DNA from: an uncultured archaeon
Lineage (GTDB): Archaea; Nanobdellota; Nanobdellia; Woesearchaeales; UBA9642
NCBI GenBank assembly: GCA_963777125.1
Contig: CAVZPN010000003.1
Coordinates: 32,503-96,502 of the forward strand
Reading direction: 5' to 3'
Length of the DNA: 64,000 nt
This document shows, one piece after another, positions 31,408 through 39,434 of this stretch. The notes below the pieces were generated by a model that had not been told where the DNA came from, searched no databases, and saw nothing but the letters and a program-made list of their open reading frames with translations. The first letter of the stretch is position 1, and the number at the start of each line of letters is the position of its first letter. The position numbers were made by a program, and so were the translations under genes.

Positions 31408-31839
31408 TTAGTCTAAATAAGTATAACTTCTAGCCAAATTAAGAATAATTTTGTTCTTTGGTAACGCTTCAATATCTTTAAATAAATTATCTAAAATAGA
31501 CTCATACCTTTTATCACAAAACGTTATAATTATATCTTTTTTAAAAGGCTTATTATAAACACATACAATTTGCGCAATATCTTTTTTCAAAGTAAAGTCA
31601 GTAATATGCCATTTACCTATTTTTAATGATTTAATATTTTTTTCCCATATATAATAATTATCAGAAATATCATCTAAATCAGAATTTGATTTTAAAATCA
31701 TACCTCCACCAATAAGCCTAGAAGGATAAAATGATTTAAGATTAGTTAATATACTATGTCCAACTACTCTTCCCATATCTCTAGAAGTATAATGTTCTGA
31801 ATCATTTATCAAATCAACAAGATAGTTATTTTCATTCAT
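31408..31839 (-). CDS. Hypothetical protein
   Basis: 143-aa ORF with GGGGA RBS-like sequence. Confidence 0.55.
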   Translation of the reverse strand: MNENNYLVDLINDSEHYTSRDMGRVVGHSILTNLKSFYPSRLIGGGMILKSNSDLDDISDNYYIWEKNIKSLKIGKWHITDFTLKKDIAQIVCVYNKPFKKDIIITFCDKRYESILDNLFKDIEALPKNKIILNLARSYTYLD

Positions 31840-32003
31840 TTTTTATCCCCATATATACATCCAAAAAGGACGCGAGTATAGATCGTGTAATAATAAATCA
31901 AAGATTTAATAGTATACACTCAGGAATGATTACGCTTATTAAAATATTTCGATTACAAAAATATATAAATCATAACAATATAACAATAAAACGAGGTATT
32001 AAC

Positions 32004-32141
32004 ATGAAATTTGAACAAGAAGAAAATTTAGAATTAAACAAAATAATTGAGAAGAAAGTTAAAGAACTAAAAATGGATACAAAAGAAGACTTTGTTGCTC
32101 ATTGCGTTCGAAAAGAACTAGGATTAAAAGATCCACAATAA
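32004..32141 (+). CDS. Small ribbon-helix-helix/CopG-like protein
   Basis: GAGGT RBS before MKFEQ; IIEKKVKELKMDTKEDFVAHCVRKEL resembles RHH helices. Confidence 0.45.
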   Translation: MKFEQEENLELNKIIEKKVKELKMDTKEDFVAHCVRKELGLKDPQ

Positions 32142-32238
32142 ATCTTGCATTCTTTTATTTTTATATATTAAAAAAACATAATTAATCAAACAATTATATC
32201 TCTAGTATAAAAACCTACTGAAACAAAGTTAAATCATA

Positions 32239-32910
32239 ATGGAACATAAAGCATATTTTAACAATTCAAAAGGCGAAAAGATATCATTCATACTTTCTAA
32301 ACCAACAGAAGACACAAATACGCCTATTGTAATAATGTGTCATGGACTTAACGGAAATAAAGATGGTAAAACACATCTTACTTTAAACAAAATATTTCTT
32401 CAAAACAATATTGCAACATTCAGATTCGATTTCTATGCACACGGAGAAAGTGAAGGCATAATAGATAATAGAACACTAGAAGAATATGTTGATAATACAA
32501 CAAAAGCTATCGAATATGTTAAAAATCTTGGTTACAAAAAAATAGGATTACTTGGTACAAGCATAGGTGGAGCTACAGCAGTAATAGCAACTTCCAAAAG
32601 TGAAGCTGTCAAAGTACTTGCACTAAAAGCTGCAGGAATGGGACAAATATCTAGAAAAATGGATAATTATAAACATAATTTTGAAAATAAGACATGGATA
32701 AAAGCAGCAGAAAACATTCGCATACCAACTCTGATGTTACATGGCATAAAAGATATAGATATTGAATTAGAACTAGCAAAAGATCTAGCTAATGCAATCA
32801 AAACAAGTAAACTAATAATTTATGAAAATGCAGATCATAGATTCTCAGGAGAAGAAGACTTCAAGCAATCAATAAAAGATATATCTGAATTTTTTATAAA
32901 AGAATTATAA
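32239..32910 (+). CDS. Alpha/beta hydrolase
   Basis: HG oxyanion (MCHG), GTSIGG nucleophile elbow, LHGIKD (Asp region), ADHRF (His). Confidence 0.9.
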   Translation: MEHKAYFNNSKGEKISFILSKPTEDTNTPIVIMCHGLNGNKDGKTHLTLNKIFLQNNIATFRFDFYAHGESEGIIDNRTLEEYVDNTTKAIEYVKNLGYKKIGLLGTSIGGATAVIATSKSEAVKVLALKAAGMGQISRKMDNYKHNFENKTWIKAAENIRIPTLMLHGIKDIDIELELAKDLANAIKTSKLIIYENADHRFSGEEDFKQSIKDISEFFIKEL

Positions 32911-33027
32911 TAAATAATAACGTATTCTAGCCTCAAGTTTATTTTAATATCTCAATAATCCAAAAAATATAAAGTAATTCTACTATAAAAGAGTAACATT
33001 TATGAATGTTTATTTATTTCTTAAATT

Positions 33028-34065
33028 ATGATTAAACTTGATCCAAAAGTTGCCGTTTGGGAATACACACTTGCATGCGATTCTAAATGTATTCATTGTG
33101 GCTCTGATGCTAAATTCAAAAGAAAAGATGAATTAACAACAGTAGAATCTCTAGATTTGGTTGACCAAATATCAGACATAGGATTCAATTTAACTGTTCT
33201 TTCCGGAGGAGAACCAACACTAAGAAGAGATTGGGCCATTATTTCAGAAAGAATTAAAACGAATAATAAAGATTTTGGAATAATTAGCAACGCATTAAGA
33301 TGGAATAGCAAAACTATTGACACATTAGTTTCTTTAAAACCTTATGCAGTAGGATTTAGTATTGACGGAGAATCACAATTACACGATTATCTAAGAGGAA
33401 TTAATGGATCACATAAAAAAGTCTTTGATATGATTAAACAACTAAAAAAATATGATGTCACAGTATGCGCAGTTACTGCAGTTAATAACTTAAATTTAAA
33501 TGAACTTTCCGAAATTAGAAATCGATTAATCGTTTATGGTGTTGATGCGTGGCAAATTCAAATGGCATCCCCCATGGGCAGAATGGCAAATAATAAAGAA
33601 TTAGTTTTAGATGCAAACGATTATTATAAACTAGGAAAATTTATCGTTGAAACAAGAGAGCGATTACCTTACATGAACGTTCAAGCAGGCGATTGTATTG
33701 GATATTTCGGATCACAAGAGAAAAAATTACGCGATAGCGAATGGAATGGATGCATGGCAGGAATTGAAGGCATAGGAATAGAATCAAACGGAAATATTAA
33801 AGGTTGTCTATCAATACAAGCAACTAAATCAATCGAAGGAAACATTAGAACCACTAAATTAAAAGATATATGGGAAAATATGGAAAACTTCAAATATAAC
33901 AGAGCATTTCAAATAGCTAATATGAAGGGTGATTGCATCGGCTGTGAAAAAAGCTTACAATGCAAAGGTGGCTGTCAAAGTCAATCAACAGCATTTTTTA
34001 ACGAATTTAATCATGCGCCTTACTGTTTTTTAAGATATGAAAAATCTAATGGGGGAACAAAATGA
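33028..34065 (+). CDS. Radical SAM/SPASM domain enzyme (peptide-maturase type)
   Basis: CDSKCIHC (CxxxCxxC), SGGEP, SIDG, SPASM CMAG..GNIKGC and Cx2Cx5Cx3C (CIGCEKSLQCKGGC). Confidence 0.92.
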   Translation: MIKLDPKVAVWEYTLACDSKCIHCGSDAKFKRKDELTTVESLDLVDQISDIGFNLTVLSGGEPTLRRDWAIISERIKTNNKDFGIISNALRWNSKTIDTLVSLKPYAVGFSIDGESQLHDYLRGINGSHKKVFDMIKQLKKYDVTVCAVTAVNNLNLNELSEIRNRLIVYGVDAWQIQMASPMGRMANNKELVLDANDYYKLGKFIVETRERLPYMNVQAGDCIGYFGSQEKKLRDSEWNGCMAGIEGIGIESNGNIKGCLSIQATKSIEGNIRTTKLKDIWENMENFKYNRAFQIANMKGDCIGCEKSLQCKGGCQSQSTAFFNEFNHAPYCFLRYEKSNGGTK

Positions 34066-35030
34066 CTCAAACCGAAATTAAGAAAAGAAATTTAATTAAT
34101 ACCATAACTGAATGTTTAAAAGAACATCAAGTAGAATTAGCCGGAACAAAAAGCACAGTTCCAATGTATCTAATTGAAGTATCAATGCAAGGAAATTCAT
34201 ACACTGATTTTAAAGATACATACAATTCTGAAGTAGATGATTTCAAAAAACTACTAGCAGACAAAGTATTTAAAAATACCAATTCAGATCAGACATACGG
34301 TGTGTTAATAAATACAGATTTACAATACTCTTTCGCATTTAATAGAAAATTTGCAGATATTGATAAAGTTGAACATAAAATAAAATTCAAAGATATAGAA
34401 GAATTATTATTAGAAATGGTTTCTAAACAAGACATAAGTTTAATAAAACCAGAAAATAATTATCCCAATAGACCAAATTCAGGTAATAGTACAATAAGAT
34501 ATTCTATTAGCGGCAAAAAGGATAATAAGACTAACGAAAATACATCTAATGAAAAATTAAACTTTGATAAAGCATCAATGTTAGATAGAATAACAGCCCT
34601 TTATTCAAAAAATCAGATAATAATGAATACAGAAAAAGAAAACTATGAAGAATTATTTTTAATAAATATATCATATAATACTTCAACTATTAACGATTTT
34701 ATGAATACATATAAAGGAGAATTGAATTCATTCCAAAAAAAATTGGCACAAAACATATTCGAAAATAAAAAAACAAACAATACTTATAGTATTTTATTAT
34801 CTTCAGGTTTACAAATGAAGTATGCATTTAATACAGATTTTGCAAGATATGATGAAAAATCTAAATCAGTTGTATATACTCCAGTTGAAGAAGTATTATT
34901 AAGTAAAACCAAGATAAATAATTCAGATTTATCCGAATTTAAGCCTAAAAAACAATATAAACCGAAACCTGATTTTTTTAAACCAAATGGCCCGACAACA
35001 TTTAGATATTCACTTCAAGGCGGAAAATAG
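34062..35030 (+). CDS. Two-repeat protein, candidate radical SAM substrate or partner
   Basis: Two ~150-aa homologous halves ending STIRYSISG and TTFRYSLQGG; ATGA-coupled to the radical SAM gene. Confidence 0.65.
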   Translation: MTQTEIKKRNLINTITECLKEHQVELAGTKSTVPMYLIEVSMQGNSYTDFKDTYNSEVDDFKKLLADKVFKNTNSDQTYGVLINTDLQYSFAFNRKFADIDKVEHKIKFKDIEELLLEMVSKQDISLIKPENNYPNRPNSGNSTIRYSISGKKDNKTNENTSNEKLNFDKASMLDRITALYSKNQIIMNTEKENYEELFLINISYNTSTINDFMNTYKGELNSFQKKLAQNIFENKKTNNTYSILLSSGLQMKYAFNTDFARYDEKSKSVVYTPVEEVLLSKTKINNSDLSEFKPKKQYKPKPDFFKPNGPTTFRYSLQGGK

Positions 35031-35119
35031 TTTTATTTTTTTATAATTTTTTATTAAGTACTGACATTATATGTCTCTCCAATAATAACCTTTATATTTT
35101 AATAAGATTATTCTAGAGT

Positions 35120-35722
35120 ATGATAAGATGGATTTTATTTGATCAGGCAAAAGTTCAAACACATAATATCTTTAGTAGAAAAGAATTCTATTCTATTGGA
35201 GATAGAAAATTTTCTTCAAGAAAACTAGAATTAGTTTTTGACTTACCAGAATATAACGAATTTAGCCTTGGAAAAATAACCGAAGACGAACTAATAAACA
35301 CATTCTTAGACAAATATGAACTTGATTTATCAATAGATGAATTTATCATCCTATTGCAAGAAGCAATCGAGCCTATTGAAGGAATGAAAGAACTCTTAGA
35401 ACAATTATCTAAAAAATACGAATTAGCAACACTAATTAATGAGGGTTCAGAATGGGCTAAGTATAAATTAGAAGTCCCACATTTTGATAAATTCTTTAAA
35501 GTTAATATTATCTCTGGAGAAATTGGTCTTGAAAAACCAGACAAAGAATTCTACTTAAAGGCACTTGAAATACTAAATGCAAAACCAGAAGAATGCATAT
35601 TTACTGATGATAAAAAAGAAAATTGCGATGCAGCTGAAACTGTTGGAATAAAATCAATTGTGTTTACTAATGCTGCGCAATTAAAACAAGATTTACAGAA
35701 ATATAATGTATACTTAGATTAA
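35120..35722 (+). CDS. HAD-family phosphatase (YihX-like)
   Basis: ILFDQ motif I (atypical), LINE, EKPD, FTDDKKEN. Confidence 0.75.
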   Translation: MIRWILFDQAKVQTHNIFSRKEFYSIGDRKFSSRKLELVFDLPEYNEFSLGKITEDELINTFLDKYELDLSIDEFIILLQEAIEPIEGMKELLEQLSKKYELATLINEGSEWAKYKLEVPHFDKFFKVNIISGEIGLEKPDKEFYLKALEILNAKPEECIFTDDKKENCDAAETVGIKSIVFTNAAQLKQDLQKYNVYLD

Positions 35723-37551: not shown

Positions 37552-38451
37552 TTATTTAAAATGCGATATTAAATGTTTTCTTAGTTCATCTGAGAGTTTG
37601 CTATCTTTATGTATTATTGCTTTTATTTCGCAAGTTTTATCGAATATGTTCTCAATTAACCATTCTGAATCAAGGTTATCAAATGATTTAATTTTCTTTA
37701 AGTAAGAATCAAGTTTGGTAAGTAATTCAAATGGAATATACACCTCAACCACGTAATCTGAAAATATTAAAATTTCAGAAGGCCCATTAAGCTTAATTCC
37801 CATAATAACCTTATTTCCAACAGAATCATAAAACTTTTTTGACCATTTATCTAAAACGGTTTTGCCTGAACAAACAGTATATAATTCATAACCAGCCTTT
37901 TTTAGTGTTGTTATCCAATTATGCTCTGCGCGAAGATAAAATAATGGGCGCCATTCATGATGATGATGTATACAAATACTGCGTTTATCTTTAAAACCCT
38001 TTAAAGTTTTCTTTTGAAAATAATACAAGTATTTTTCTAAATCAAACCAGTTATTGAAGATAAATACTCGTATAGATTCATTACTACTATAACCATCATC
38101 TTTAATACCATGATTATCTTTTCTGGAATCAGCAGTTTCTTTTGTTTCTTCTACTGACAAGAAGGATCTTTTTTTAGAAAAATAATTAACACGAATTATG
38201 TCTGTTTTTTCATGAATATCTTTAATCCAAGCAAGATTAATCATAAATCCATCTGAAGTTTTAATTAATTTATTATCATCGAGAAGTTGGTGAATTGCCT
38301 TATGTACTGCTTGATAAGTTATCTTTAATCCTCTTTTTTTAAGTAAATAATATATCTTTCTTAAAGATAATGGCCACTCATAACTAAGAAGTTCTATAAT
38401 TTTATCTTTAGTTGAATCATTATTAGATAAATCCATACTTAGAGAAAACAT
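37552..38451 (-). CDS. Winged-helix transcriptional regulator
   Basis: IIELLSYEWPLSLRKIYYLL...TYQAVHKAIHQLLDD wHTH. Confidence 0.7.
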   Translation of the reverse strand: MFSLSMDLSNNDSTKDKIIELLSYEWPLSLRKIYYLLKKRGLKITYQAVHKAIHQLLDDNKLIKTSDGFMINLAWIKDIHEKTDIIRVNYFSKKRSFLSVEETKETADSRKDNHGIKDDGYSSNESIRVFIFNNWFDLEKYLYYFQKKTLKGFKDKRSICIHHHHEWRPLFYLRAEHNWITTLKKAGYELYTVCSGKTVLDKWSKKFYDSVGNKVIMGIKLNGPSEILIFSDYVVEVYIPFELLTKLDSYLKKIKSFDNLDSEWLIENIFDKTCEIKAIIHKDSKLSDELRKHLISHFK

Positions 38452-38558
38452 CTTAATTATATAAACCTTTTGATTGATTTTTTTATAACCTAAGGATTAT
38501 ATATTCTCTTGACAAAGCACATCTAAGAAGAAACCACAAATACACTAGAGGCGATTAA

Positions 38559-39434
38559 ATGAAATTTCCATGGGACAAATATGAAGAACAAGAATTAACA
38601 AGAAGAAACACCCTTCAAGTATTTATAACAAATGTGTGTAATTTAAAATGCGAGGGATGTTTTGCAAAAAACATAATATCAGAGAATAATAAACATATGA
38701 CAATTGAAGAATATACGAAAGCAATTAAAGCATTTATTGAAAAAGGAGGAAAACAAATAAATTTGCTAGGAGGAGAACCATTACTTCATCCACAATTAAA
38801 AGAAATATTAAAAATCAATAAAGATAATAACATCAAGACGACTATATATACGAATGGATACTTTCTTAATCGATACACAATTGAAGATTTGCAAGGAGCA
38901 AAATTAAGAGTTTCAATTTATTGTGATATTGGAAAAGTAAAAGATGTATTTAATCTCCCTAAAACAGAATTACCAATAGATGCCAACTTTATGATCTCAG
39001 CAAACACAACATTAAAAGAACTTATTGATTGCAGTTCATATATTGAACAAAACTTTAATTGTGATACATTCTTTATTTTCAGCATGAGAGAACTCGATAA
39101 TCCAAGAAAAGAATTTTTTGATGATACTAAATTAACAATGCCAGTCATACAATATAAAGAATTAGTTCATGAATTCTTAAATATCTATGAAGGAAAAATG
39201 GACATACACATATCGAAAAGAGGAGTATTTGAAAGTACAAAAACATTACCGGATACTAAATGTCGATTTGCAAATTATATTATTGGAGGCAAAATAATTC
39301 AATGCCCATATGATGTTGTTAACACTAAATTTCAAAAAGATTATTCATTCGGAGAAAGACATTGTCAGCATAATAACACTTGCCTTATGAGCAAGATAAT
39401 TTTAAAGAGAAAAAACATCCACATAAAAGACTAA
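38559..39434 (+). CDS. Radical SAM protein of unknown function
   Basis: TNVCNLKCEGC, LGGEP, YTNG; C-terminal Cys residues (CRF..QCPYD..HC..TC). Confidence 0.85.
   Translation: MKFPWDKYEEQELTRRNTLQVFITNVCNLKCEGCFAKNIISENNKHMTIEEYTKAIKAFIEKGGKQINLLGGEPLLHPQLKEILKINKDNNIKTTIYTNGYFLNRYTIEDLQGAKLRVSIYCDIGKVKDVFNLPKTELPIDANFMISANTTLKELIDCSSYIEQNFNCDTFFIFSMRELDNPRKEFFDDTKLTMPVIQYKELVHEFLNIYEGKMDIHISKRGVFESTKTLPDTKCRFANYIIGGKIIQCPYDVVNTKFQKDYSFGERHCQHNNTCLMSKIILKRKNIHIKD

What the first reader, a model, noticed from the sequence alone, without database searches (positions are those of the whole stretch)
32239..35030. Radical SAM/SPASM enzyme coupled to a two-repeat protein with conserved C-terminal R-Y-S cores
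Seen: the SPASM enzyme stop overlaps the start of a 322-aa protein made of two homologous ~150-aa domains. Each domain is followed by a Pro/Asn-rich linker and a conserved tail (STIRYSISG; TTFRYSLQGG), which looks more conserved than the rest of the repeat. An alpha/beta hydrolase lies directly upstream. Known: SPASM maturases crosslink aromatic residues in short motifs (three-residue cyclophanes, Arg-Tyr ryptides), and some precursors have large folded leaders or several cores. Inference: an archaeal RiPP or protein-modification system with a double leader-core precursor.
Basis: partly seen in the sequence, partly recalled or inferred. Interest (0 to 1): 0.76.

Follow-up and report, generated by a model that had tools for sequence, protein, structure and literature searches.

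The report
Splicease-like enzyme with tyrosine-tailed protein substrate
A tiny symbiotic archaeon carries a two-gene unit, also found in ultra-small bacteria: a radical SAM enzyme and its probable target, a protein of unknown fold whose floppy tails hold an invariant tyrosine, which the enzyme probably cuts out of the backbone to leave a reactive keto-amide, though the chemistry is untested.

Summary
A 345-aa radical SAM/SPASM gene (33028-34065) overlaps by ATGA a 322-aa gene (34062-35030). That gene encodes two homologous domains (31% identity, E 5e-20), each followed by a variable linker and a conserved tail.

Comparative data support an enzyme-substrate pair:
- About 130 homologs exist: two-domain forms in DPANN archaea and single-domain forms in CPR/Patescibacteria.
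- The only invariant column across 73 diverse members is the C-terminal tail Tyr.
- The family motif is h-h-[RK]-Y-[SAG]-[LIV]. Neither Arg nor Ser is invariant.
- A related rSAM/SPASM gene lies immediately upstream in all 21 distinct loci that could be tested. No other neighbour is conserved, including the alpha/beta hydrolase.
- AlphaFold gives two confident domains (pLDDT >90) with disordered tails. Nothing matches in PDB, Pfam or NCBIfam.

The enzyme's best named family is TIGR04103, the family I take to hold the tyramine splicease PlpX, but it scores far below cut-off (226 versus 725 bits). In a tree it falls in the sister clade of bona fide members, whose partners carry X-Y-G sites. Some CPR tails carry "LYGIFP", identical to a Nif11 precursor core beside a bona fide TIGR04103 member.

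Best reading (about 0.5): tyramine excision producing alpha-keto-beta-Arg/Lys residues on protein tails. It is a new variant of a known kind, and the chemistry is untested.

The parts
33028..34065 (+). Radical SAM/SPASM enzyme, 345 aa, with no RRE or other extra domain. It is the predicted maturase (splicease-like).
   Evidence: Pfam Radical_SAM and SPASM. CX3CX2C at residues 17-24, CX2CX5CX3C at 303-316, and further Cys at 223, 242, 260 and 333. Best NCBIfam hit is TIGR04103 at 226 bits, below the 725 cut-off. It lies in the sister clade of bona fide TIGR04103 members.
34062..35030 (+). Predicted substrate protein, 322 aa: two homologous folded domains, each followed by a disordered linker and a Tyr-motif tail. 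It has no signal peptide or TM segment.
   Evidence: ATGA overlap with the rSAM gene. Internal repeat E 5e-20. AlphaFold2 pLDDT is above 90 in the domains and below 50 in linkers and tails, pTM 0.71. Maximum Kyte-Doolittle hydropathy over 19 residues is 0.69. No Pfam, NCBIfam, PHROG or PDB match.
34062..34430 (+). Domain 1 (residues 1-123), alpha/beta fold. The N-terminal helix (residues 12-22) is conserved, and H22, L37-V40, D49, Y79-V81 and A92-R95 are invariant among the 20 closest homologs.
34488..34520 (+). Tail 1 core motif S-T-I-R-Y147-S-I-S-G-K-K in the disordered inter-domain linker. It is a predicted modification site.
   Evidence: The motif is found in 54 of 65 two-domain homologs: R66/K25 - Y100 - S59/A35/G5 - L53/I31 - x - G85. 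2.17 bits per column against 1.05 and 0.93 in the flanking linkers.
34569..34916 (+). Domain 2 (residues 170-285), a paralog of domain 1.
   Evidence: D1 and D2 each cluster across homologs.
34995..35027 (+). Tail 2 core motif T-T-F-R-Y316-S-L-Q-G-G-K at the C-terminus. It is a predicted modification site and the universal element of the family.
   Evidence: Y316 is the only invariant column in 73 diverse members. The motif is found in 63 of 65 two-domain and 48 of 51 single-domain homologs. 2.52 bits per column.
32239..32910 (+). Alpha/beta hydrolase. It is a neighbour only and not a conserved part of the module.
   Evidence: Pfam Hydrolase_4 and Abhydrolase_1. Absent next to the module in all other loci.
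35120..35722 (+). HAD-family hydrolase. It is a neighbour only and not a conserved part of the module.
   Evidence: Pfam HAD_2. In the closest relative the module is followed directly by the U32 peptidase gene.

Best explanation
The two translationally coupled genes form a self-contained maturase-substrate module.

Proposed mechanism:
1. The 322-aa protein is a pseudo-dimer of two folded domains of an undescribed family.
2. The domains, perhaps through the conserved N-terminal helix, dock the radical SAM/SPASM enzyme (inferred).
3. The enzyme then acts on the invariant Tyr in each disordered tail, in the motif h-h-[RK]-Y-[SA]-[LI]-x-G-K-K (inferred from conservation and linkage).
4. By homology to tyramine spliceases (PlpX, RhaX), the most likely reaction is excision of a tyramine equivalent (C8H9NO, -135.07 Da). 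[quoted passage not shown]
5. No protease or exporter gene is linked and the protein has no signal peptide. The product is therefore probably the full-length cytoplasmic protein carrying one or two electrophilic keto-amide warheads.
6. By analogy with spliceotides, these would act as a covalent-reversible inhibitor of Arg/Lys-specific Ser/Cys (or Thr) proteases (speculative).

What is shown: the gene pair, the repeat, the tail conservation, the strict linkage across DPANN and CPR, and the enzyme's placement next to spliceases. What is inferred: the substrate relation (about 0.85-0.9), the splicing chemistry (about 0.5) and the biological role (low confidence).
For: Linkage:
- An rSAM/SPASM homolog lies immediately upstream on the same strand in all 21 distinct loci with upstream DNA. 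These are the window, 14 other DPANN loci and 6 CPR loci. All other neighbours differ.

Substrate signature:
- The tail Tyr is the only invariant column in 73 diverse members, and it is invariant in 35 single-domain proteins whose mean column identity is 28%.
- The tails are predicted disordered (pLDDT below 50) yet are as conserved as the folded cores.
- The intergenic gaps leave no room for another peptide gene.

Enzyme:
- TIGR04103 is the top NCBIfam hit for the window rSAM (226 bits) and for all 7 other relatives tested, 4 of them module rSAMs (145-238 bits). PqqE, MftC, WgkB and DynA score 65-95 bits for the window enzyme. I take TIGR04103 to be the signature of IPR026482, the InterPro family that PMC11002830 gives for PlpX; that link is from memory.
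- In a rooted ML tree, DPANN+CPR enzymes (sisters, 88/90) sit in clade B, sister to clade A. Clade A holds bona fide TIGR04103 members.

Motif continuity:
- Bona fide members sit beside Nif11 precursors ending 'ALYGIFPIP' or 'RPLYGVIV'.
- A clade-B relative (L059) sits beside a protein with four copies of '[KS]YG[IYF]P[RQDE]'.
- CPR tails read 'TTLYGIFPDD' plus 'IKYSAFP' in L028, against 'VRYGAFP' at the same position in L027. G, S and A therefore interchange after Tyr; G makes up 3-12% of family sites.

Literature:
- Spliceases excise tyramine at X-Y-G, binary systems lack the Y protein, and a leader helix activates the enzyme (PMC11414181).
- Spliced proteins and peptides inhibit proteases (PMC11626197, PMC9811515).
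Against: - No experiment exists.
- The enzyme scores far below the TIGR04103 cut-off (226 versus 725 bits). It belongs to a sister clade for which I found no characterised member.
- The window's sites are Y-S, not Y-G. All characterised splice sites I could find in the literature are X-Y-G, and it is unknown whether Ser or Ala after Tyr allows splicing.
- The folded domains carry invariant polar residues (H22, E39, D49, N94, R95). This hints at a function of their own beyond enzyme docking.
- The tree had only two outgroup sequences.
- No target protease is identified.
Confidence: 0.5

Rival explanations
1. The substrate relation is the same but the chemistry differs. The rSAM/SPASM enzyme modifies the tail Tyr without excising it. 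Options include a three-residue cyclophane (Tyr ring to C-beta of the +2 Leu/Ile, triceptide-like), an Arg/Lys-Tyr crosslink (ryptide-like, the first reader's idea), beta-hydroxylation or desaturation, or epimerisation.
For: Y-S-[LI] formally fits an aromatic-X-X cyclophane motif, and the +2 residue is conserved as L/I/V. Arg or Lys precedes Tyr in 74-91% of sites. The enzyme is below every curated cut-off, so its chemistry is not fixed by homology. Ser or Ala instead of Gly after Tyr is not documented for spliceases in the papers read (PMC11414181, PMC9811515).
Against: The residue before Tyr is also M, C, L, T, V, E or S in a fair share of sites, so an obligatory Arg-Tyr link is unlikely. 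WgkB (95 bits) and DynA (65 bits) score well below TIGR04103 (226 bits), and no triceptide maturase family appears among the 25 best NCBIfam hits. Relatives in the same clade have canonical K-Y-G sites, and CPR tails share LYGIFP with a Nif11 precursor core beside a bona fide TIGR04103 member.
Confidence: 0.3
2. The two-domain protein is not the substrate. Instead it is an obligate partner of the enzyme (an activator, chaperone, carrier or second subunit), and the enzyme acts on a small molecule or an unlinked protein. The conserved Tyr tail would then serve for binding or regulation.
For: The domains are well folded and carry invariant polar residues. The enzyme also shows moderate similarity to the tetrapyrrole-modifying enzymes NirJ2 and AhbD, at 113-126 bits. 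Small activator proteins are known for type I spliceases (PlpY; PMC11414181).
Against: The single invariant residue of the family lies in a disordered tail, inside a short motif that resembles splicease core sites. The motif is duplicated together with the domain. No tetrapyrrole or cofactor genes are linked in any locus.
Confidence: 0.1
3. This is a classical secreted RiPP. The domains are disposable leaders, and short modified core peptides are cut out and exported as antimicrobials or signals.
For: Multi-core precursors and large leaders (Nif11, NHLP) are known for spliceotides (PMC11002830). Basic residues flank the motif (G-K-K) and could be protease sites.
Against: No leader peptidase or transporter is linked in any of 21 loci. 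The core sequence is nearly constant across phyla, unlike hypervariable antimicrobial cores. The domains are as conserved as the cores. There is no signal peptide.
Confidence: 0.08

Closest known systems
Spliceotide systems: tyramine spliceases PlpX/PcpX (with the Y protein, type I) and binary RhaX/RasX/RcsX with Nif11/NHLP-type precursors. PMC11002830 places PlpX in IPR026482; I take NCBIfam TIGR04103 to be that family's signature (from memory).
   Same: The enzyme is rSAM plus SPASM and the pair is a binary enzyme-precursor unit. The target is a Tyr followed by a small and then a hydrophobic residue in an unstructured stretch. Several sites per precursor are possible. It is the best-scoring named family for every enzyme of the module. 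Some CPR members carry true Y-G sites, one identical over six residues (LYGIFP) to the Nif11 precursor core beside a bona fide TIGR04103 member.
   Different: The enzyme scores 226 bits against a 725 cut-off and lies in the sister clade. It is about 70 residues shorter than TIGR04103 members (345 aa against 417-423 aa). The site is Y-S or Y-A in more than 85% of cases. The 'leader' is a 120-aa folded domain of an undescribed family, duplicated in archaea. The hosts are DPANN archaea and CPR bacteria. The papers I read describe spliceotides only in bacteria; I did not see the original survey (Scott et al. 2022).
TIGR03913 (GDL-motif peptide-associated rSAM/SPASM maturase) and TIGR04133 (rSAM/SPASM 'with lipoprotein' family)
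   Same: These are the second and third best NCBIfam hits (202 and 178 bits). Both families are defined bioinformatically as rSAM/SPASM enzymes paired with a neighbouring small protein.
   Different: Both score below cut-off (592 and 425 bits). The partner proteins here have no lipobox or GDL motif. The chemistry of those families is itself uncharacterised, to my knowledge.
Asgard-archaeal cassette of a splicease-like rSAM with small membrane proteins (seen here in L012; earlier scan note e1-2536671)
   Same: The enzyme is 44% identical and lies in the same clade B. The partners end in 'GT[LA]YS[ST]V[KR]', a Tyr-Ser site like the window's.
   Different: The partners there are 82-88-aa single-pass membrane proteins, and a further 444-aa gene is linked. 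There is no homology to the folded domain found here.
Triceptides (3-residue cyclophane-forming rSAM/SPASM enzymes) and ryptides (Arg-Tyr crosslink).
   Same: An rSAM/SPASM enzyme acts on an aromatic residue in a short repeated motif.
   Different: The Arg is not invariant. Those enzyme families are not among the best hits.
Protein-modifying SPASM enzymes acting on folded proteins: anSME (sulfatase formylglycine) and QhpD
   Same: The substrate is a protein that probably stays intact after modification, not a released peptide.
   Different: There is only distant sequence similarity (anSME 67 bits; PDB 4k37 E 9e-5), and the target residue is different.

Membership tests
Spliceotide/splicease systems (PlpX family, TIGR04103) | Radical SAM core (CX3CX2C) plus a C-terminal SPASM domain with auxiliary-cluster cysteines | tested here: met
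   Pfam PF04055 and PF13186. C17-C21-C24 and C303-C306-C312-C316, plus four more Cys.
Spliceotide/splicease systems (PlpX family, TIGR04103) | Score above the curated TIGR04103 cut-off (725 bits) | tested here: not met
   226 bits for the window enzyme and 145-238 bits for seven relatives. Bona fide cyanobacterial members score 805-862 bits.
Spliceotide/splicease systems (PlpX family, TIGR04103) | Phylogenetic placement inside the clade of characterised spliceases | tested here: not met
   The rooted ML tree places DPANN+CPR enzymes in clade B (91/89). This is sister to clade A (99/96*), which contains the true TIGR04103 members. Only two outgroups were used.
Spliceotide/splicease systems (PlpX family, TIGR04103) | Adjacent precursor carrying X-Y-G splice sites | tested here: inconclusive
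   The window has R-Y-S twice. Across the family the residue after Tyr is S/A in 87-94% and G in 3-12% of sites. CPR members L027 and L028 carry true Y-G sites.
Spliceotide/splicease systems (PlpX family, TIGR04103) | Nif11- or NHLP-type leader, or a PlpY-like RRE protein | tested here: not met
   No Pfam or NCBIfam hit in the partner, and no third small gene in any locus.
Spliceotide/splicease systems (PlpX family, TIGR04103) | [quoted passage not shown] | not testable with these tools
   Needs co-expression and MS/NMR.
Ryptides (Arg-Tyr crosslinked RaS-RiPPs) | Obligatory Arg next to the crosslinked Tyr | tested here: not met
   The residue before Tyr is R in 50-66%, K in 19-31%, and M/C/L/T/V/E/S in the rest.
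Triceptides (3-residue cyclophanes) | Enzyme similarity to a triceptide maturase family (XyeB, GrrM or FxsB types) | tested here: not met
   None appears among the 25 best NCBIfam hits (E down to 1e-11).
Triceptides (3-residue cyclophanes) | Aromatic-X-X motif in the precursor | tested here: inconclusive
   Y-[SA]-[LIV] fits the motif formally. That alone does not discriminate.
Peptide-derived cofactor pathways (PQQ, mycofactocin) | PqqE or MftC equivalog score and linked accessory genes (PqqB/C/D, MftB/D/E/F) | tested here: not met
   PqqE scores 81 against a 381 cut-off and MftC 89 against 265. No accessory genes occur in any locus.

The most novel reading that the evidence does not exclude
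The module makes a 'spliceoprotein': a cytoplasmic protein of new fold that stays intact and displays one or two backbone alpha-keto-beta-arginine or -lysine warheads on flexible tails. That would be a genetically encoded, bivalent, covalent-reversible inhibitor (or an electrophilic prosthetic group). It would be a first spliceotide-type modification in archaea, and the first at Tyr-Ser/Tyr-Ala sites. The module would be shared by horizontal transfer between DPANN archaea and CPR bacteria, suggesting a role tied to the ultra-small, host-dependent lifestyle.
Probability: 0.3. Interest if true: 0.85.

Novelty: new variant of a known kind. Interest (0 to 1): 0.7.

Why it matters
If confirmed, this would extend tyramine splicing in four ways:
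- from bacterial peptides to archaea and CPR bacteria;
- from X-Y-G to X-Y-S/A sites;
- from short leaders to a folded, duplicated docking domain of unknown fold;
- from released peptides to an intact cytoplasmic protein carrying keto-amide warheads with Arg/Lys side chains, the pharmacophore of trypsin-like and cysteine-protease inhibitors.

That would widen the sequence rules used to mine spliceotides. According to the review PMC10849128, the published survey counted YG motifs next to the enzyme, which would miss this family. It would also supply a compact 345-aa splicease with a natural protein substrate for protein engineering.

The module is one of the few accessory gene modules shared specifically by DPANN and CPR organisms. 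If the chemistry turns out to differ, it is a new Tyr-directed radical SAM reaction with an unusually clean, testable two-gene system.

Tried and rejected
- **Alpha/beta hydrolase and HAD hydrolase as parts of the system:** rejected. Neither is present in any other locus. The closest relative (87% identical enzyme, 72% identical substrate) has rSAM-substrate followed directly by U32.
- **Fold or family assignment for the domain:** nothing found. Pfam, NCBIfam and PHROGs gave no match. The PDB sequence profile gave nothing below E 0.3. Foldseek against PDB and BFVD gave no hit with E <= 1e-3.
- **PADLOC 'Cyclase' model PDLC00809:** it gives a weak local hit to domain 1 (E 8e-6) in 8 of 20 close homologs but in 0 of 35 single-domain members. 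I treat it as unexplained and probably spurious.
- **The search for related loci with the broad alignments A3 and A2:** failed because no conserved stretch was available. A1 worked.
- **The search for homologous proteins with the A2 profile:** returned only 3 proteins, because of word-index limits.
- **The listing of cluster members:** gave no taxonomy for single-domain proteins.
- **P0237 as an apparent rSAM fusion:** it is a chimera of two different radical SAM genes and was ignored.
- **Enzyme-substrate complex prediction:** not possible, because only single chains encoded in the window can be submitted.
- **PQQ- or mycofactocin-like cofactor pathway:** considered and rejected (see the membership test).
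Full report
**1. Observation**

The window is AT-rich (GC about 0.28). The three ORFs are exactly as described:
- an alpha/beta hydrolase at 32239-32910;
- a 345-aa radical SAM/SPASM protein at 33028-34065;
- a 322-aa protein at 34062-35030.

The last two overlap as ATGA, and a G-run lies 9 nt before the second start. Pfam finds Radical_SAM and SPASM in the enzyme and nothing in the 322-aa protein. The enzyme has CX3CX2C at residues 17-24 and the SPASM signature CX2CX5CX3C at 303-316, plus four further cysteines. It has no extra N-terminal (RRE) domain.

The two halves of the 322-aa protein align over about 150 residues at 31% identity, E 5e-20. Each half ends with a Pro/Asn/Lys-rich linker and a tail: TIRY147SISGKK and TFRY316SLQGGK.

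**2. The family and its tails**

A word-indexed search found 20 homologs named as Woesearchaeota or Nanoarchaeota. An exhaustive phmmer run against 1.84 billion cluster representatives found 114. About half are two-domain proteins of 285-390 aa and half are single-domain proteins of 120-210 aa.

Nearly all end in the same short motif:
- In 73 diverse members the only invariant column is the C-terminal tail Tyr.
- In 35 single-domain proteins with a mean column identity of 28%, that Tyr and one Leu are the only invariant positions.

Motif statistics:

| Tail | Found in | -1 | Tyr | +1 | +2 | Downstream |
|---|---|---|---|---|---|---|
| C-terminal, two-domain | 63/65 | R55 K19 M11 C6 | Y100 | A68 S26 G3 | L71 I19 | x - G84 - K72 - K63 |
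| Inter-domain | 54/65 | R66 K25 | Y100 | S59 A35 G5 | L53 I31 | x - G85 |
| Single-domain | 48/51 | R50 K31 | Y100 | S58 A29 G12 | L/I/A | x - E/D - K/P |

Information content per column in 62 two-domain proteins:
- domains: 2.15 and 2.05 bits;
- tails: 2.17 and 2.52 bits;
- linkers: 0.93-1.23 bits.

AlphaFold2 with the 20-sequence alignment gives two confident alpha/beta domains (pLDDT above 90, pTM 0.71). Linkers and tails are disordered (pLDDT below 50 at residues 124-162 and 286-322). Conserved islands in disordered tails are what one expects of enzyme recognition or modification sites.

The fold has no counterpart in PDB or BFVD (no Foldseek hit with E <= 1e-3). There is no sequence-profile match in PDB. 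The protein has no hydrophobic segment or signal peptide.

**3. Linkage**

Every locus that could be tested has an rSAM/SPASM homolog immediately upstream on the same strand:
- six loci fetched through homologous proteins;
- thirteen loci from named genomes;
- loci from two genomes of the same phylum;
- the closest relative.

In total this is 21 distinct loci including the window. One further match (L011) sits at a contig edge and cannot be judged. All other neighbours differ from locus to locus. The alpha/beta hydrolase and the HAD hydrolase of the window recur nowhere. No protease, transporter or third small ORF is linked.

Six of the named loci are bacterial: Patescibacteria/CPR (Magasanikbacteria, Buchananbacteria and unclassified), plus a 1.0-Mb genome labelled Gammaproteobacteria. 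These carry the single-domain form behind a 337-347-aa rSAM/SPASM enzyme.

The enzyme is more conserved than its partner. Against the P0005 locus, for example, the enzyme is 70% identical and the partner 48%.

**4. Distribution and local history**

The module is patchy. It occurs in 4 of 401 genomes of the phylum and in none of 10 sampled congeners.

In two congeners, gyrB, a small conserved ORF and the U32 peptidase gene are adjacent. In the window, four genes lie between the small ORF (31926-32141) and U32 (35804): alpha/beta hydrolase, rSAM, substrate and HAD. In the closest relative only rSAM and substrate lie in front of U32. The two-gene pair is thus the mobile unit.

Domains 1 and 2 each cluster across homologs. 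This is consistent with one old duplication in the archaeal lineage.

**5. What the enzyme resembles**

NCBIfam scores for the window enzyme:

| Family | Description | Bits | Cut-off |
|---|---|---|---|
| TIGR04103 | nif11-class peptide rSAM maturase 3 | 226 | 725 |
| TIGR03913 | GDL-motif peptide-associated maturase | 202 | 592 |
| TIGR04133 | rSAM/SPASM 'with lipoprotein' | 178 | 425 |
| NirJ2 / AhbD | | 126 / 113 | |
| WgkB | | 95 | |
| MftC | | 89 | |
| PqqE | | 81 | |
| DynA | | 65 | |

TIGR04103 is also the top hit for all seven other relatives tested, including the CPR enzymes.

The literature identifies PlpX, a member of IPR026482, as the prototype tyramine 'splicease'. I take IPR026482 to be the InterPro entry that integrates TIGR04103; that link is from memory. 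Key points from the papers:
- Binary systems lack the Y protein and use a leader helix as activator (PMC11414181).
- The products inhibit Ser/Cys proteases (PMC11626197).

To obtain true references I searched TIGR04103 in 401 genomes of the phylum of a cyanobacterial MAG. 21 genomes have members over the cut-off, at 805-862 bits, with further tiers at about 600, 440 and 230 bits. Their neighbours are informative:
- True members sit beside Nif11-type precursors ending 'VALYGIFPIPYDTI' or 'IIRPLYGVIVWPPVQAMYGVVISDNL'.
- The 600-bit tier sits beside proteins with 4-5 copies of 'QP[KM]YGLP'.
- The 440-bit tier sits beside zinc-ribbon, lipobox proteins with 'SACYG'.
- A 342-aa enzyme of the 230-bit tier (279 bits to the window enzyme) sits beside a protein with four copies of '[IV]-x-[KS]-Y-G-[IYF]-P-[RQDE]'.

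A careful ML tree rooted on two other SPASM proteins gives two clades:
- Clade A (99/96*): true TIGR04103 members plus the 600 and 440 tiers.
- Clade B (91/89): the 230 tier, an Asgard group, two orphans, and DPANN+CPR as sisters (88/90). DPANN is supported at 98/96* and CPR at 100/100*.

The partners of the Asgard group end in 'GT[LA]YS[ST]V[KR]'.

The window enzyme is thus not a member of the PlpX family proper. It belongs to its sister clade, and throughout both clades the partner carries Tyr followed by a small and then a hydrophobic residue.

Within the present family G, S and A interchange after Tyr. L027 has 'VRYGAFP' where L028 has 'IKYSAFP'. Both have a second upstream site 'TLYG[GI]FP', which in L028 shares LYGIFP with a Nif11 precursor core beside a bona fide TIGR04103 member.

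**6. Mechanism**

*Shown:* the coupled gene pair, the duplicated domain-linker-tail architecture, the invariant tail Tyr, strict linkage across two domains of life, and the enzyme's placement next to spliceases.

*Inferred, with my confidence:*
- The folded domains dock the enzyme and the tails are its substrates (about 0.85-0.9).
- The reaction is tyramine excision, giving alpha-keto-beta-Arg at both sites of the window protein and beta-Arg or beta-Lys in most homologs (about 0.5).
- The modified protein stays intact and cytoplasmic, because there is no signal peptide, peptidase or exporter.
- It acts as a keto-amide protease inhibitor or carries an electrophilic group for another purpose (speculative).

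*Rivals:*
- another Tyr-directed reaction such as a cyclophane, a crosslink or epimerisation (0.3);
- the protein is a partner rather than the substrate (0.1);
- a classical released RiPP (0.08).

The decisive test is simple: co-expression and MS, with -135.07 Da versus -2.02 Da versus 0 Da at Y147 and Y316.

**7. Novelty**

I found no paper describing this family or any spliceotide system in archaea or CPR. According to the review PMC10849128, the published survey mined for YG-rich neighbours, which would miss Y-S/Y-A partners. I could not read that survey (Scott et al. 2022).

Earlier notes of this scan describe several splicease-like modules with Tyr-Gly partners and one Asgard cassette with a Tyr motif. 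They agree with this reading but are unchecked AI notes, and I reached the splicease idea before reading them.

I rate this a new variant of a known kind. The enzyme class is known and the chemistry probably is too. What is new is the substrate family and fold, the site variant, the host range, and the likely intact-protein product.

**8. Limits**

- The complex could not be modelled.
- The tree has few outgroups.
- The taxonomy of most single-domain homologs is unknown.
- A weak recurring PADLOC hit to a CBASS cyclase model remains unexplained.

Noticed in passing
window 31408-35722, compared with L029 (G039:C2) and L030 (G402:C6): In two congeners, gyrB, a small conserved ORF (homolog of window 31926-32141) and the U32 peptidase gene are adjacent. 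The window has extra genes here: a 143-aa ORF on the minus strand (31408-31839), and the four co-directional genes alpha/beta hydrolase, rSAM, substrate and HAD (32239-35722). This is a small insertion hot spot next to gyrB.
   Followed up: partly
L006 6001-6992: In one Woesearchaeota-like contig the substrate gene is split. A 192-aa ORF holds domain 1 plus tail 1. A separate 84-aa ORF holds the end of domain 2 plus tail 2 ('GTVIKYSIQGKKES'). This is a pseudogene, a sequencing error, or a step towards single-domain genes.
   Followed up: no
P0020, P0051, P0052, P0056 (two-domain); P0070, P0071 (single-domain): One subfamily lacks the inter-domain Tyr motif, and its C-terminal site reads C-[TSG]-G-G-x-x-C-Y-A-[LIV]-V-G-P-K, with two Cys close to the Tyr. 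P0070 and P0071 read 'RCTGGR[MI]SYS[IL]PE'. These members might carry an additional or different modification, for example a thioether.
   Followed up: no
L012 2307-6076 (Promethearchaeota contig): An Asgard rSAM that is 44% identical to the window enzyme is flanked by two 82-88-aa single-pass membrane proteins ending 'YPSGT[LA]YS[ST]V[KR]' and by a 444-aa protein. It has the same Tyr-Ser type of site on an unrelated leader.
   Followed up: partly
L059 1696-3465; L063 and L065; L060-L062 and L068: Cyanobacteriota-phylum genomes hold at least three further splicease-like tiers below the TIGR04103 cut-off, each with a distinct partner: a 207-aa protein with 4x K-Y-G-F-P, proteins with 4-5x QP[KM]YGLP, and zinc-ribbon plus lipobox proteins with 'SACYG'.
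   Followed up: partly
window 34149-34328 (residues 30-89 of the substrate): There is a weak local similarity to PADLOC model PDLC00809 (CBASS-type oligonucleotide cyclase, model positions 189-248 of 295; E 8e-6). It is seen in 8 of 20 close homologs but in 0 of 35 single-domain members. It remains unexplained.
   Followed up: partly
window 37552-39434: A second radical SAM gene without SPASM (38559-39434, 291 aa) gives only N-terminal hits to viperin-, MoaA- and NirJ-type models. It lies divergent to a 299-aa gene with no Pfam hit (37552-38451). A 295-aa minus-strand gene followed by a 285-aa radical SAM gene recurs in the same order downstream of U32 in the closest relative (L031); I did not compare the sequences.
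   Followed up: no
L026 / G405: The genome labelled 'uncultured Gammaproteobacteria bacterium' that carries a single-domain module is only about 1.0 Mb, and its enzyme groups inside the CPR clade. The label is probably a misclassification of a CPR genome.
   Followed up: no
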